Positions 12,001 through 18,000 of a stretch of DNA of 64,000 nucleotides are shown in pieces. The stretch spans positions 4,992,001-5,056,000 of the forward strand of contig CH464491.1 in assembly GCA_000002445.1 (NCBI GenBank). The letters are read 5' to 3'. Every line of letters starts with the position of its first letter. Position 1 is the first letter of the stretch. Position numbers: made by a program. Origin of the DNA: Trypanosoma brucei. Lineage: Eukaryota.

Positions 12001-15000
12001 TCGTATCGCCACAGAGATTCTTTCTTGTTGTTGCTTCGCCGTCGCTGCTCTTTATGTTGGATTCCGTTAGTTTGTTTTCGTTGTCTATGCCTGCTCCGAA
12101 GGCTGCTGATTTTAGCTCATTTTTGAGTTCGGCTGCAGTTAGCTTGGCACTGTTTTCTTGTACTATTTGCAGTTCGTCGACCGCGGCTGCTGCCTGCTCC
12201 GCTAGTGGTTGCAGCGCCGCGAGGTATTGTAGCCGCTGAGATTCGGTTGAAAATTTCAGTTGTGCTGCTTTTAATGTTTGCTTTGGTTGGCTCTCCCTTT
12301 CGAGCTCAGCCTCTGCGTCTGCCCAGTTGGCCCATCTCTTCATGTGAAGGCCATCCTCCTTACCGTCTTCTGGTTTGTACGGGTGCCTGGCATCGCCTTC
12401 GCCAGTCTTTCCAAACTTGTTGCGCCACTCGGGATTGCACAGTAACGCGTGCGTAACTTCTGGATTTGCTAGTATTCCGCTGTTGCCTGTTGAGTTTTGG
12501 GCAGGTCTGGAAACTGAAGCTTGTGTAGAGTGATTAATGTACAGAGATCGACAAAAAGGTGTGAGTGCTCGCCTGCTGCTAGTGCATCGCTGACGTCGCG
12601 CTTGCTAGAAGCAGTAGGATTGTGATTGTTGCTTGCGTGGTTTACGTCGGCATGTTGGTGCTACTAGGTCTCCCTTAGGTCCGTTTTTGGGATGTAAACT
12701 AGTGTTATAGGGTTGTAGTCCTCCACTGCTGACATTGGCGCTGACAGGTTTTGTATTCAAGGTATATTACAAAATTTCACCGTGTGTGCGTGAGGCTATC
12801 TCATATTTATTGTTTAGCTTCCTTTTACAATTTCATAACCCTGAACAAATTCTATTCATTAGACACACCACGGGAAACAATATCATATTCAAAATTCCAT
12901 TTCTCTCCGTCAATCAAATAAGTATCAATCATATTAAAATCTTTTCTGCTAAATTTCCTTCTTTCCAATTCTTATACCAATTGATATTTTTCACAATAAG
13001 CTTCGCTCTTTCTTCCCATGCAATTATTTGTCCTTGAAAGTAAATGAATTAGGTTACACCAATCACCCCACTATTTGAAATAGTAAAAAATATCTCCTCA
13101 TAATCTAATCCAATCATTCCACTCTTCAAAACAAATCTCTGTCCAACAACTTCTTCTTGAATTGCACTCCAAATTGAAAATGGCTTGTAAATGCTTTGCT
13201 CGGAACACACTGCCATTCCTCACCTCCGTTAAGTAATTCCTAAATTGCATATTCAGATTTCTTAAACGCCAATACCCGTGTAATTACTCCACCGCCACTA
13301 AGATACGGTTTTACACTTGGAGGTGATTTTAGTAGGTAAGGTAGCTTCTTATCCTCTTCTTCTCTGAGTAAAGAGCCTTTAAAAACCAAAAACATCTCTG
13401 CATATGCTCATTGTGATCTGAGTTCATAAGCAAATCCAACTGAGGCGCATAACACTCTGATGTTGTCATGAATATAATGGGGGAAATATGCTTCTCTTTT
13501 ACTATATCTTCTCCAATAACCTTCTCTTCATTTTCCGCAATATTTTGTATAAAATATTCCACAGCATTTTCATACTTATTTCCATCACTAACTATAACAT
13601 CAGATCCGTCGGAATGAATTAAAATATCCTCGTCACTTACGTTCTGTCTTTCCAAAAAAGTCTATTACCCATCTAGGTCTTTTAAGATGGCTGTACAAAC
13701 CTTTCATCGCAATTGTAATATTTCATAATTTTATTAATTTGACCAAGAATCCTTAATAAGCTAAAATGATACCAAACTCAAAAAAGCAGCATTCATCAGA
13801 GAAAATTTCTTATTTACAAGGAAACTGAAATCCTTGCATTCTTTTCCATCCCATTTGCAGCCATCTTTGCATTCCCCTTAAGTTTTCTTTTTGGTGAACT
13901 TTTTGCCTTCCGCACTTGTTGCTGCAGCTCCCTCCTCTGCTTCGTTTATCTGTCCTTCTCCATCTTTGGGGTTGCATGTTCCATCTGTTTCCGATTTCCC
14001 TTCCAATTTGCAGTTATTGTTTGTGCAGGTCGAGTTCGCGGTATGGGTGGCGCAGGTATCCGCCTTATTTTGTTCCACTTTTCCTTGGATGCCGGCGGTT
14101 TGTTGCGCTGTTTGTGCTATTTCTGGCGCAAAACTGCGTGGGTTTTCTAGAGCTCTGGCACGTGCGGCCAGCACAGCCAATTGTTTACTTCGCTCGTTGA
14201 CGAGGTTGTCATGTTTTTCTCGTGCTTCTAGAGCTGCTGCGAGTTCCTCCATGTCTTTGAGCCATGGGGTTTCCGGGTCTTTAAATATTTCGTGGGGTTT
14301 TTTGTTTGACAATTTGATGCACCTGCCGTTGTTTTGTTTCCCGTTGCAGTTTGTTTGGAACACTCCTAGGTATGTGCTGGTGCCGTCGGTTGTTGCGAGG
14401 CGTGCGATTTTGTTTAGTGCTTGGCGTATCGTGCGGTATGTAGTTTTCTGTTTGTGCTCGTCTGTTATGCATTTGCCTGCGATCTCCCTGGCGGCGTTCT
14501 GATACGGTGCGCCGCTGTTCTGCCACACGTTGGCGGCGGTTTGGCCTTTGAAGCAAATGTCGTCAAATTCGCCGTTCGCTTCTCCTTGGCAGACACAGCT
14601 CATTTTTTTTTTGGAATTTTCTTCGTGCCTTCGTGAGAGTTTCCCCCCACTGGCGCGGCCATCAGCCATCACCGTAGAGCCCTGAGATGCTATCGGTCTG
14701 GCGACTGTGGCAGAGTCTCCCTTTTTATTCATCCTAACACACCCTCTATAATTTTTGTTGTAGCTCCGCAGTTGAACGGAATACAGCAGGTGGGGCGAGA
14801 AGCCCCCCTCACTCCGGACTCTCCAAAAGATGTCAATTAGCAATCCTTTTGTTTTGATTTTTGTTATTCGTTTATTATTCTCTTCCCCTCTTTCTGTTTC
14901 TGTTGCTTGTTGATTGCATACCCCCTCTGTCTCTGAGGGTGTCTGGACTATTCCTGCGTCCGGTGCTTTTCCTGCTAGCTCCACACTCGGTAATAAGGGG

Positions 15001-18000
15001 GGAAGTTGCAGAAGGGAGAGTGGGTTGTATGACTGTTACCTTAGGTGAGGACTTCACCTGTGGCCGGCTCCGTTCAACCGCAATGAGAAACTGCGCCAGC
15101 CTTTTAGAGAAACATACATCCTGCACACACTCACCTTCTACCGCAAACCTGACACGTAACTCCTTCAAACCGGGACAGCTCATCAGGTGCAGCGACGTTT
15201 CTTCGCAGTCGCCGCGTTGGCTGGTAACAGCGCGCTCTACCTTCATACCGTGCATCTTCTTTTGATGTAGGGTGAGGCCAGTTTTGCTAGCACACTGCCT
15301 TCCGCATGTCGGGCACACCAACATGGATGTGTTTGTATGCGGGGAATCAGTGGCACACAATTTTGTGCTTTTGCTGCATTTAAGCTCGACTCCCTCACCT
15401 TTGTGGAAAGCCTTACAGTGTCGGATGAGGGAGTCCCTGCAACTGAGCACTTTTTGGCACACACCACACTGCACCTCGCCTTTCCCCGGGACGTCAACGT
15501 TTCCCTCACGGGCACGCTTACGAGGGAATTGCACCAACACCACGGTACCGTCCTCCGTCACTATGCTTTTATGTTTGAATTTCTTGTGTAGTGACAGGGA
15601 AGAACGTGTACCGAAGCTCGCCTCGCACAGGTCACATTGAAACGGCAGCTTCCGTGTATCCTGAGAGGCTGGCGGTGCTGGGGCTCTACCATCTCCTTGC
15701 AATGAGTCTTCGTTCTCTCGTCCCCTTTTCACGCGGCAACTACCGCTACCTATGCCATGTATTGTTCTAAGGTGGTGTAATAGTCGGCCTGGCACTGCGA
15801 ATTTGGAGGCACAGAGGGTACAATGAAGCACCTGCGGTCTCATCGGGACTCGTGTGCTCGATGGTAGAGGAACGATCGCCACCACTGGAGGGGGCTCCGG
15901 GGGGATATCCACTGCAGGTGTTGCATCGCCGTATTTGATCCTCCGGAGGGCATAAGCTCGCACAAAGCCATGTTTGTTTACCATATGCGTTACAGCACTC
16001 GAGCGGCATTGGTATGTGGCATCACATTCCGTACATTTGGTCGGTTCGGAGGTTCTCTGAAGAGTGCGTGTCGCAACAGGTGTGGCCGTTTGTATTGTTG
16101 GCCCTATTGCTGCATGTTGCGGGTTACACCATCGGCACTGTGGAGGCACACTCGGGTTGATCTTTCGCAACATCCATCCANNNNNNNNNNNNNNNNNNNN
16201 NNNNNNNNNNNNNNNNNNNNNNNNNNNNNNNNNNNNNNNNNNNNNNNNNNNNNNNNNNNNNNNNNNNNNNNNNNNNNNNNGGACGACTCTAGACGTTCCT
16301 TCTGTCCGTTTCGATGTCTGCAGATTTTATTAGTGTGCCCGATGTTTCCTGTGCCTGTGCCAGTGTGGCTAACTCGACTGCTGTGTCGGCTATTATGGCT
16401 AGTTCAGCTTTGGCGGCCTGAAGTTGGGCGGCTGATAGGCGCGAGTAGTGCTTTTCGGTGGCTTTTGGCTTCCCAGGAGTGTCCTCGAGGCTTTTAATGC
16501 TTTCGATCCAGTCGTCCCACATTTTGTCCCAGTCAGCCTGTGCTGCGCCTTTTTTTGGCTTTTCTGTCGGCCATTGATCTGGTTTTTTGCTGTCGGCGAA
16601 TAATTGTTTCCATGAGTTGTCTGCGACGCTCATGTTACGCTTGATTATCTCCTTGTAGTCTGCTGTTTTGGTTGTTAGTGCCGCTGGGATATCTGGTGCG
16701 TTTTGTAACAAGCGCGCTAGCTCGCATAAGGCTCCGAAAACTTAGGTGTTTTGGCCGTTGTGGGCATTTCCGGCCCTGGCTGTTGCTGTAGCAAAAGCAA
16801 TCAGAACACCTATACAAAAATAATTCATATAGTTATGCCTCTCTTCCAGGTGTATTTTGGCGTCTTGCTGTGGGTTGTGTTTGTTAAGGGTGTGGTAAGA
16901 AGATGGAAAGTGGTTTTTAACGATTTTTAGGATTATGCTTATGGCCGAGTCGCATACTTTATTGCACACCTAAGAACAAACGCTACTAGTCAGTTGTGGC
17001 ATTTTTTTGCATTTCTACCACTGCAAAATTTAACAAAAAATGCTCCTATTATTGCTGGCTGTGCTACCTTACTATTTTCGTACCGTTCGCTGCTAATTCT
17101 TACTTTCGAATGTACGCAAGATCTTCTCTGTGGATTCTGTATATGCGTGTTTCTAGACCTCTGGTATTCTTTTTAACACCGCTAGTGCACGATAAGCAAT
17201 GCACAGTACAAACCTCAGTATATGTTTAACTCATTGACGCATAAAACACGATTTCGTTTCTGACTTTCTGTCCTTGTGCAATTATTTTGCCTGCTTACTA
17301 GTTTTTCTCTGTGCTTTCTTAAAAGCTCATGAGTTAATGGCGATTCTATTCGTGAAAAAGTCTCTACCGATAAGCTGGAGTCCGCTTTATTTCCTTAGGT
17401 AGTTTGTTTTCCCAATTTTGGCTTTATTTTCGTGTACTTTTCACCTTTAGATTTCAATCCAAACGATGTTTTTGCCTCCACACAGTTGCACTCCTATCGA
17501 GTTCTTTGTCACTTAAAGATACAAAAGCCTCTAATGGAATTGAATGCTTATGAGAAATATCTGGAGCTTGGTGGGCTCTGACTTCTAGATTGGATCCACC
17601 AGGGTTGTATAGTTAGCTTGTTTCAAATCCACCAAATCATACATTTACGATTGCTTGTAACACTTTTGTATATTTAAGACTATAAAACATGATTTTCTTT
17701 TTTTTATATAGTAGCTCTGAAAAAGAAACTCGGCGTATTAATGCCAGTAAATATCTCCGTTTCTATACCTTGTGGTGCAGTAGAGGTTATATTACTTTAT
17801 TATTTTAAGGTGTTCTTTCGCTTGTTGCTAAATAATCAAAATTTACTGCTATTGTGGGTTTTTGTCACATATTTTTGTGCAAGCATCAGATGTTTGTATT
17901 AGATATACTTTCTTACTTCGATAATTTGAACCACAAAAAGTACTTTTATATGAGTTTCATGGCCTTTATCACTTTAATTATTTGTTACAGATTGATTTAC

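What the first reader, a model, noticed from the sequence alone, without database searches (positions are those of the whole stretch)
13878..16850. Retrotransposon insertion (poly-A tail, multi-C2H2 zinc-finger ORF) splitting a b-type VSG, with its 5' side collapsed into the assembly gap
The VSG N-terminal third (16289-16828) and C-terminal two-thirds (13878-14602) have the same orientation and are separated by a 1.58 kb element. On the coding strand that element ends ...GAAAATTCC-A10 directly against VSG codons. It encodes a 432-aa ORF fragment with five C2H2 fingers, which fits the zinc-finger C-terminal region described for the L1Tc/ingi clade and for other non-LTR retrotransposons. Comparison with the paralog at 59745-60596 implies that about 25 aa of VSG (around ...GGATSRSNLCGSD...AAYLF) and the whole 5' part of the element are missing. 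A full-length ingi would be about 5.2 kb, so the 90-N gap probably hides at least 3.6 kb. This is a direct example of a retroelement inactivating an antigen gene.
Basis: partly seen in the sequence, partly recalled or inferred. Interest (0 to 1): 0.65.

Follow-up and report, generated by a model that had tools for sequence, protein, structure and literature searches.

The report
Ingi retrotransposon inside a VSG pseudogene
A known Trypanosoma brucei jumping gene (ingi) sits inside one silent, already defective surface-antigen (VSG) gene copy, with its front part lost in an assembly gap; this is an ordinary, well-documented kind of event.

Summary
On the minus strand the order is: a b-type VSG N-terminal piece (16281-16828), a 100-N gap (16181-16280, not 90), 1,568 bp of retroelement (14613-16180), an A10 tail (14603-12), then the rest of the same VSG (13761-14602).

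The element is the 3' end of T. brucei ingi:
- Its last ~230 bp carry the published RIME-LAMP primer sites. Four match exactly, in the expected order and orientation.
- Upstream lies an unbroken 432-codon ORF with five C2H2 fingers.
- The ORF's only specific database relatives are "Tbingi protein" entries of other trypanosomes. In those, this region follows RNase H and precedes the poly(A).

Both VSG pieces align in order to the same VSG relatives (64-82% identity), and 46-47 aa are missing between them, not ~25. The 5' junction, the expected 12-bp target-site duplication and up to ~3.6 kb of ingi lie in the gap, so simple insertion is inferred, not proven.

The VSG also has three in-frame stop codons, so "ingi inactivated an antigen gene" overstates the case. 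This is a known element in a known setting, and interest is low.

The parts
16281..16828 (-). VSG (b-type) N-terminal piece: start codon, signal peptide and the first ~180 codons. In-frame stops at 16742-16744 and 16289-16291. It runs to the gap edge.
   Evidence: Pfam VSG_B E=1.1e-13, profile positions 34-153. 80% identical to P0003 residues 46-224. Stops located.
16181..16280 (.). Assembly gap of 100 N. By inference it hides ~141 bp of VSG, the 5' copy of the target-site duplication, and the upstream part of ingi (up to ~3.6 kb if full length).
   Evidence: gap coordinates. Homology to VSG and to ingi protein each runs right up to a gap edge.
14875..16180 (-). C-terminal, post-RNase H part of the ingi ORF: 432 codons from the first ATG, open to the gap edge, stop TAA at 14875-14877. 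Five C2H2 fingers at 15970-16035, 15757-15822, 15571-15636, 15403-15468 and 15250-15315.
   Evidence: 'Tbingi protein' hits at E=5.4e-37 and 4.4e-21. Further specific hits. Alignment. Pfam zf-C2H2_4 E=1.4e-8.
14613..14874 (-). ingi 3' untranslated end. From about 14840 downwards it equals the 3' half of RIME.
   Evidence: RIME-LAMP primers B3, B2, LB and B1c match exactly at 14624-14723. F1c, LF and F2 match with a few mismatches at 14778-14840. F3 is absent (primers from PMC4358998; mapping).
14603..14612 (-). Poly(A) tail (A10) of the retroelement. The last A may equally be the A of the VSG's ATG codon.
   Evidence: Relatives read ...LLAAM|SCVCQGE at this point.
14591..14602 (-). Predicted 3' copy of the 12-bp target-site duplication (TGAGCTGTGTCT on the minus strand). 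A prediction only.
   Evidence: Sequence. The 12-bp TSD rule for Tbingi/TbRIME is from PMC3820030. The 5' copy is not in the assembly.
13761..14602 (-). VSG C-terminal piece: it resumes at (M)SCVCQGE, includes the C-terminal domain and a GPI-signal-like tail, has an in-frame stop at 13878-13880 and its natural stop at 13761-13763.
   Evidence: Pfam VSG_B E=6.9e-25, profile positions 206-350, and weak Trypan_glycop_C. 70-81% identical to the seven close relatives that cover it (P0003-P0009). Stops located.

Best explanation
An ingi element, the 5.2-kb autonomous non-LTR retrotransposon of Trypanosoma brucei (Tbingi, ingi clade), inserted in the sense orientation into the coding sequence of a silent b-type VSG in a subtelomeric VSG array. 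The insertion point is at the codons for ...LLAAM|SCVCQ....

Shown:
- The assembled 1.57 kb is the element's 3' end. It comprises the post-RNase H C-terminal coding region with five C2H2 fingers, a ~260-bp 3' end whose last ~230 bp are the 3' half of RIME, and an A10 tail that abuts VSG codons directly.
- The two VSG pieces are the two ends of one VSG family member, in the right order and on the same strand.

Inferred:
- Insertion was by target-primed reverse transcription. The element's AP-type endonuclease nicks the target, the poly(A) end of the ingi RNA is reverse-transcribed from the nick, and a second nick 12 bp away creates a 12-bp duplication.
- The 5' junction, ~141 bp of VSG and the APE-RT-RNase H part of ingi are hidden in the 100-N gap, probably because the repeat broke the assembly.
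- By analogy with C2-L1Tc of T. cruzi, the zinc-finger region would act as the element's nucleic-acid chaperone and binding domain.

The VSG is a pseudogene in any case, since it has three in-frame stops. The insertion therefore adds one more lesion to an archive copy. It did not knock out a working antigen gene.
For: - RIME identity: four RIME-LAMP primer sites match exactly and three more nearly, in the order and orientation expected for a RIME 3' half whose sense strand is the window's minus strand. The most upstream primer, F3 (expected in the RIME 5' half), is absent.
- ORF identity: in the word-indexed search, the only hits at E<=1e-3 among 5.8 billion proteins are T. theileri 'Tbingi protein'. 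In the exhaustive search, all eight named hits examined that match outside the generic fingers, or in a single stretch, are Tbingi proteins of T. theileri or T. grayi or a T. congolense product. The other hits examined are generic poly-zinc-finger proteins.
- Position in the element: T. theileri locus L001 has endonuclease, RT fragment, RNase H, this zinc-finger ORF and an A-run in that order. T. grayi P0021 has the end of RNase H about 70 aa before the motif that aligns at the gap edge.
- The ORF is uninterrupted over 432 codons.
- VSG: VSG_B profile positions 34-153 and 206-350. Both pieces are collinear with P0003, P0004, P0005, P0006 and P0009, with a constant 46-47 aa missing and similar identity (N piece 64-82%, C piece 72-81%). 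No other member of that VSG family is in the window.
- Setting: a one-strand VSG array with 70-bp repeats.
- Literature: 12-bp TSD and relative site preference of Tbingi (PMC3820030). C-terminal C2H2 chaperone domain in L1Tc (PMC5814959). ingi reported in VSG genes (PMC4660242).
Against: - The 5' junction is not assembled, so there is no target-site duplication, no Pr77 5' end and no APE/RT/RNase H sequence to confirm a complete, simple insertion.
- No T. brucei ingi reference sequence was available in the tools. The ingi-specific 1.3 kb is identified only through 31-47% identical proteins of other trypanosomes plus its physical continuity with the RIME 3' half.
- The Pfam hits for APE, RT and RNase H in the comparison loci are below the curated thresholds, because those loci are fragmented by N runs.
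- No DNA of an uninterrupted allele or relative could be fetched, so the empty site is known only at the protein level.
Confidence: 0.9

Rival explanations
1. It is an ingi insertion, but not a simple full-length one. Either the element is 5'-truncated, or the ~141 bp of VSG were deleted at insertion or by later recombination. In that case the gap hides little, and there may be no intact target-site duplication.
For: 5' truncation and target deletions are common for non-LTR elements (general knowledge). The gap size is a 100-N placeholder. 46-47 aa of VSG are unaccounted for.
Against: VSG homology runs right up to the gap edge at 16281, and ingi homology right up to 16180. Both contigs therefore end in mid-feature, not at a junction, so at least some of each is hidden. 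An assembly break is just what a multi-kb dispersed repeat would cause.
Confidence: 0.2
2. The two VSG pieces come from different genes or loci of the same VSG family. They were brought together by a scaffolding join across the gap, or by ingi-mediated ectopic recombination, not by insertion into one gene.
For: The junction is a gap. ingi and RIME are known to mediate rearrangements, and such regions are hard to assemble (PMC2854126). VSG families have many similar members.
Against: The pieces have the same strand and the correct N-to-C order. They do not overlap, and the same 46-47 aa are missing against five relatives. Their identity to the same relatives is comparable, and they are the only members of that family in 64 kb. 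The poly(A) abuts VSG codons precisely, as TPRT predicts.
Confidence: 0.07
3. The 1.57-kb segment is a retroposed mRNA of a cellular C2H2 zinc-finger gene, or a degenerate DIRE or RIME, not ingi.
For: The ORF has generic C2H2 fingers that also hit hundreds of unrelated zinc-finger proteins.
Against: - Outside the fingers, the examined matches are only to Tbingi-named proteins and a T. congolense product.
- The 3' end is RIME sequence.
- It is not RIME alone, because the RIME 5' half (primer F3) is absent and 1.3 kb of ingi coding sequence adjoins.
- It is not DIRE-like, because the 432 codons are unbroken.
Confidence: 0.02

Closest known systems
Tbingi (ingi / TRS-1), the 5.2-kb autonomous non-LTR retrotransposon of Trypanosoma brucei, ingi clade (ingi4 subclade)
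   Same: - The 3' terminal ~230 bp equal the RIME 3' half.
- It has a poly(A) tail.
- The C-terminal ORF with C2H2 fingers is homologous to 'Tbingi protein' entries and sits after RNase H in related elements.
- It resides in a subtelomeric VSG array.
   Different: Only the last ~30% is assembled. The Pr77 5' end, the APE, RT and RNase H domains and the 12-bp duplication cannot be seen.
RIME (ribosomal mobile element), the 0.5-kb non-autonomous partner made of the two ends of ingi
   Same: It shares the 3' half, shown by exact LAMP primer sites at 14624-14723.
   Different: Here the 3' half is joined to ingi coding sequence, not to the RIME 5' half. Primer F3 has no site.
L1Tc of Trypanosoma cruzi and its C2-L1Tc C-terminal nucleic-acid chaperone domain
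   Same: Same clade and same position of the C2H2 domain, at the 3' end of the single ORF. This is the basis for the inferred function of the fingers.
   Different: L1Tc has two C2H2 motifs, whereas this ORF has five. No detectable match to L1Tc was listed, and no biochemical data exist for the ingi domain in the sources read.
ingi/RIME insertions in RHS (retrotransposon hot spot) pseudogenes
   Same: An ingi-clade element interrupts a member of a large subtelomeric multigene family.
   Different: The target here is a VSG, not an RHS gene. Whether the ingi target motif is present cannot be checked.

Membership tests
Tbingi (ingi-clade autonomous non-LTR retrotransposon) | The 3' terminal ~250 bp are identical to the 3' half of RIME. 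| tested here: met
   Published RIME-LAMP primers: four match exactly and three nearly, collinear at 14624-14840.
Tbingi (ingi-clade autonomous non-LTR retrotransposon) | Poly(A) tail at the 3' end. | tested here: met
   A10 at 14603-14612 on the minus strand, directly followed by VSG codons.
Tbingi (ingi-clade autonomous non-LTR retrotransposon) | C-terminal C2H2 zinc-finger region of the element's ORF, downstream of RNase H. | tested here: met
   Five fingers. Hits to Tbingi proteins. RNase H, zinc-finger ORF and poly(A) in that order in T. theileri L001 and T. grayi P0021.
Tbingi (ingi-clade autonomous non-LTR retrotransposon) | AP-endonuclease, reverse transcriptase and RNase H domains. 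| not testable with these tools
   This region would lie in the 100-N gap. None is found elsewhere in the window.
Tbingi (ingi-clade autonomous non-LTR retrotransposon) | 77-79-nt Pr77 signature at the 5' end. | not testable with these tools
   The 5' end is not assembled. No Pr77 match anywhere in the window.
Tbingi (ingi-clade autonomous non-LTR retrotransposon) | 12-bp target-site duplication, preceded by the conserved upstream motif. | not testable with these tools
   The 5' junction is in the gap. Only the 3' copy can be predicted (TGAGCTGTGTCT). The rule is from PMC3820030.
RIME (non-autonomous) | The 5' half of RIME is joined directly to the 3' half (about 0.5 kb in total). | tested here: not met
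   Primer F3 has no site. Upstream of ~14840 the sequence is the end of the zinc-finger ORF.
DIRE (degenerate ingi/L1Tc-related element) | Coding region riddled with stops and frameshifts. | tested here: not met
   432 codons plus 'GW' are open up to the gap.
b-type VSG | VSG_B N-terminal domain, plus a C-terminal domain with a GPI-signal tail. | tested here: met
   Pfam VSG_B on both pieces, and weak Trypan_glycop_C (E=0.0064, below the cut-off). 64-82% identity to T. brucei VSGs. The tail ...SFLVNKKFSLMNAAFLSLVSF was read by eye.
Functional (intact) VSG | An uninterrupted ORF from the signal peptide to the GPI signal. | tested here: not met
   Three in-frame stops as well as the insertion.

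The most novel reading that the evidence does not exclude
The hidden part could be a full-length ingi with an intact APE-RT-RNase H-zinc-finger ORF. That would make it one of the few potentially autonomous copies, and a recent, possibly strain-polymorphic insertion into the VSG archive. The unbroken 432 codons, the exact RIME primer sites and the clean A10 junction all fit a young copy. Such a copy could mark a datable retrotransposition event in an antigen-gene array, and a breakpoint at which the two VSG halves act as separate donors for mosaic VSGs.
Probability: 0.15. Interest if true: 0.25.

Novelty: already known. Interest (0 to 1): 0.1.

Why it matters
It matters little beyond annotation. 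It shows where a dispersed repeat broke the assembly, so this gap should be closed with long reads. It also documents one more ingi copy sitting within a VSG pseudogene in a subtelomeric array. Both ingi and RIME, and their presence in VSG regions, have been described since the 1980s. If the copy proved full-length and polymorphic between strains, it could serve as a marker of recent retrotransposition in the antigen archive.

Tried and rejected
- Pr77 on the plus strand. I suspected that the plus strand of 14640-14720 carried a Pr77 5' signature, which would have reversed the element's orientation. Local alignment to the L1Tc, L1Tco and Tvingi Pr77 sequences scored no better than shuffles. 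The familiar-looking sequence turned out to be the RIME-LAMP target.
- Rfam at E<=1 over 13000-18000 found nothing.
- A self-BLAST of the element and of both VSG pieces against the window found no second copy and no close paralog.
- The exact-sequence contig look-up found nothing for the zinc-finger ORF, P0005 or P0003, so no uninterrupted allele DNA or T. brucei ingi DNA could be fetched.
- A full-text search for a 17-mer of the element found no paper.
- Kimmel et al. 1987 (PMC365235) is not held.
- The T. brucei ingi target-site motif could not be tested, because the consensus appears only in a figure and the upstream flank is in the gap.
- tblastn with T. theileri endonuclease, RT and RNase H fragments, and blastn with Pr77 and TbSIDER2 sequences, found no other ingi-clade sequence in the window.
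Full report
**Setting.** The window is a one-strand array of VSG genes and pseudogenes. Nearly all long ORFs lie on the minus strand, spaced roughly every 3-6 kb. Pfam finds VSG_B, Trypan_glycop (a-type) and Trypan_glycop_C domains in them. Units of the 70-bp repeat occur between cassettes. The closest proteins to the VSG in question are Trypanosoma brucei VSGs. 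This is therefore a subtelomeric VSG archive of a T. brucei-group trypanosome.

**Observation.** Read on the minus strand, the region has these parts:
- a VSG start (ATG at 16826-16828) with a signal peptide and about 180 codons, reaching the gap edge at 16281;
- 1,568 bp of non-VSG sequence at 14613-16180;
- an A10 run at 14603-14612;
- VSG codons again, from (M)SCVCQGE.

Pfam VSG_B matches the N piece at profile positions 34-153 (E=1.1e-13). It matches the C piece at positions 206-350 (E=6.9e-25). The VSG does not end at 13878. After that in-frame stop the same frame continues through GECKDGCKWDGKECKDFSFLVNKKFSLMNAAFLSLVSF to the natural stop at 13761-63. The intervening ORF (14875-16173) is 432 aa and stays open ('GW') up to the gap. 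It has five C-x2-C-x12-H-x4-H fingers.

**What the element is: the 3' end.** I recognised sequence from the RIME diagnostic LAMP assay and checked it in the literature. The primer set is printed in PMC4358998.
- B3, B2, LB and B1c match exactly at 14624-14723.
- F1c, LF and F2 match with a few differences at 14778-14840.
- All sit in the order and orientation expected if the RIME sense strand is the window's minus strand.
- The most upstream primer, F3, has no site.

RIME consists of the two ends of ingi (title of Kimmel et al. 1987, cited). This is the pattern expected for the RIME 3' half still attached to ingi-internal sequence, and it rules out a free-standing RIME.

**What the element is: the ORF.** In the word-indexed search of 5.8 billion proteins, the only hits at E<=1e-3 were two T. 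theileri proteins named 'Tbingi protein' (E=5.4e-37 and 4.4e-21). The exhaustive HMMER search returned hundreds of generic poly-zinc-finger proteins. Of the nine hits I looked up, eight carry names. The six of these that match in a single stretch, some outside the fingers (residues 1-164 and 282-400), are 'Tbingi protein' of T. theileri or T. grayi and one T. congolense product. The other two named hits are generic animal zinc-finger proteins.

**Position within an ingi-clade element.** The T. theileri locus L001 is broken by N runs, but it shows an endonuclease-like ORF, an RT fragment, the end of an RNase H domain, the zinc-finger ORF and an A-run, in that order. The Pfam hits there are weak and below threshold. 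T. grayi P0021 carries the end of RNase H about 70 residues before the ...YGWLLR...CRWCNP motif, and that motif aligns exactly at the gap edge. The assembled piece is therefore the post-RNase H C-terminal region, the 3' end and the poly(A) of an ingi. The missing part would be the Pr77 5' end and the APE, RT and RNase H domains, about 3.6 kb if the element is the canonical 5.2 kb.

The unbroken 432 codons argue against a degenerate DIRE.

**One VSG or two?** I joined the two pieces and searched with them. P0003 (533 aa) aligns to both in one collinear alignment at 70% identity, with a single 47-residue gap in the query. Scored separately, the N piece ends and the C piece begins as follows:

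| Relative | N piece ends at | C piece begins at |
|---|---|---|
| P0003 | 224 | 272 |
| P0005 | 77 | 125 |
| P0004 | 77 | 125 |
| P0006 | 77 | 124 |
| P0009 | 135 | 183 |

That is a constant 46-47 missing residues, with similar identity for both pieces. Nothing else in the 64 kb belongs to this VSG family. In all relatives the residue before SCVCQGE is M. The ATG formed by the last A of the run plus TG is therefore VSG sequence, and the junction is precise to within a base or two.

Same strand, correct order, no overlap and a poly(A) that abuts the target all fit one gene interrupted by target-primed reverse transcription. This stays an inference, because VSG homology runs up to one gap edge and ingi homology up to the other. 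The 5' junction, the 12-bp duplication expected for Tbingi (PMC3820030) and the upstream target motif are all unassembled.

**Mechanism and function.** The insertion mechanism (AP-endonuclease nick, priming on the poly(A) RNA end, second nick 12 bp away) rests on established knowledge of the ingi clade. It was not tested here. The role of the five fingers is inferred by analogy with C2-L1Tc of T. cruzi. That domain is the C-terminal two-finger region of the sister element L1Tc, and it binds nucleic acids and acts as a chaperone (PMC5814959).

The VSG has three in-frame stops besides the insertion: 16742-44 (TAA where relatives have Glu), 16289-91 and 13878-80. It is a typical archive pseudogene, and nothing shows that ingi was the inactivating lesion. 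The 100 N is a placeholder and gives no size.

**False lead.** The plus strand of 14640-14720 looked to me like a Pr77 5' signature, which would have reversed the element. Alignment to three Pr77 sequences taken from the literature scored no better than shuffles. There is no Pr77, endonuclease, RT or RNase H sequence elsewhere in the window.

**Novelty.** ingi and RIME are long-known, abundant T. brucei retroposons. They are known to be enriched among subtelomeric sequences, to confound assemblies and to cause indels (PMC2854126). They have been reported within VSG genes (PMC4660242). This is one more copy, so the finding is already known and of low interest. The only mildly interesting possibility left open is that the hidden part is a full-length, potentially autonomous and recent copy.

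Noticed in passing
window 21817-22037 and 39057-39314: Units of the VSG-associated 70-bp repeat, with flanking (TAT)n/(ATT)n runs (the plus-strand consensus contains ...ACACACTCACAACACTCTCC...). They mark cassette boundaries in the array. Only a short (TTA)13 run at 18427-18465 lies upstream of the interrupted VSG.
   Followed up: partly
window 46315-47820 (-): An intact 501-aa ORF of VSG size with a VSG-like layout by eye (signal-like N-terminus, Cys-rich C-terminal part, hydrophobic tail). It has no Pfam match even at E<=1. It is probably a divergent a-type VSG that the Pfam models miss. ORFs at 7073-8050, 26948-27988 and 11347-12012 also have no VSG hit.
   Followed up: partly
window 13878-14984 (-): A 368-aa ORF starts inside the ingi 3' end, reads through the poly(A) as KKK and continues in frame into the VSG C-terminal piece. 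It is in a different frame from the ingi zinc-finger ORF, so it looks like a chance read-through and not a fusion gene.
   Followed up: yes
window 16281-16300 (-): The last ~8 codons of the VSG N piece before the gap (DRRNV*SR) depart from the relatives (EMKKLFVGN), although the DNA looks similar. This could be a frameshift or low-quality sequence at the contig end.
   Followed up: no
whole window: Most VSG-like ORFs in the array are fragments of 200-350 aa, i.e. pseudogenes. Only four ORFs of 459-501 aa (29594-30973, 34983-36422, 43069-44562, 46315-47820) look full-length. a-type and b-type VSGs are interspersed.
   Followed up: partly
L001 (T. theileri NBCO01000002.1 368219-385166): The T. 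theileri ingi-like element used for comparison is heavily interrupted by N runs in the public assembly. Its 'Tbingi protein' gene models are therefore fragments of one element, not separate genes.
   Followed up: partly
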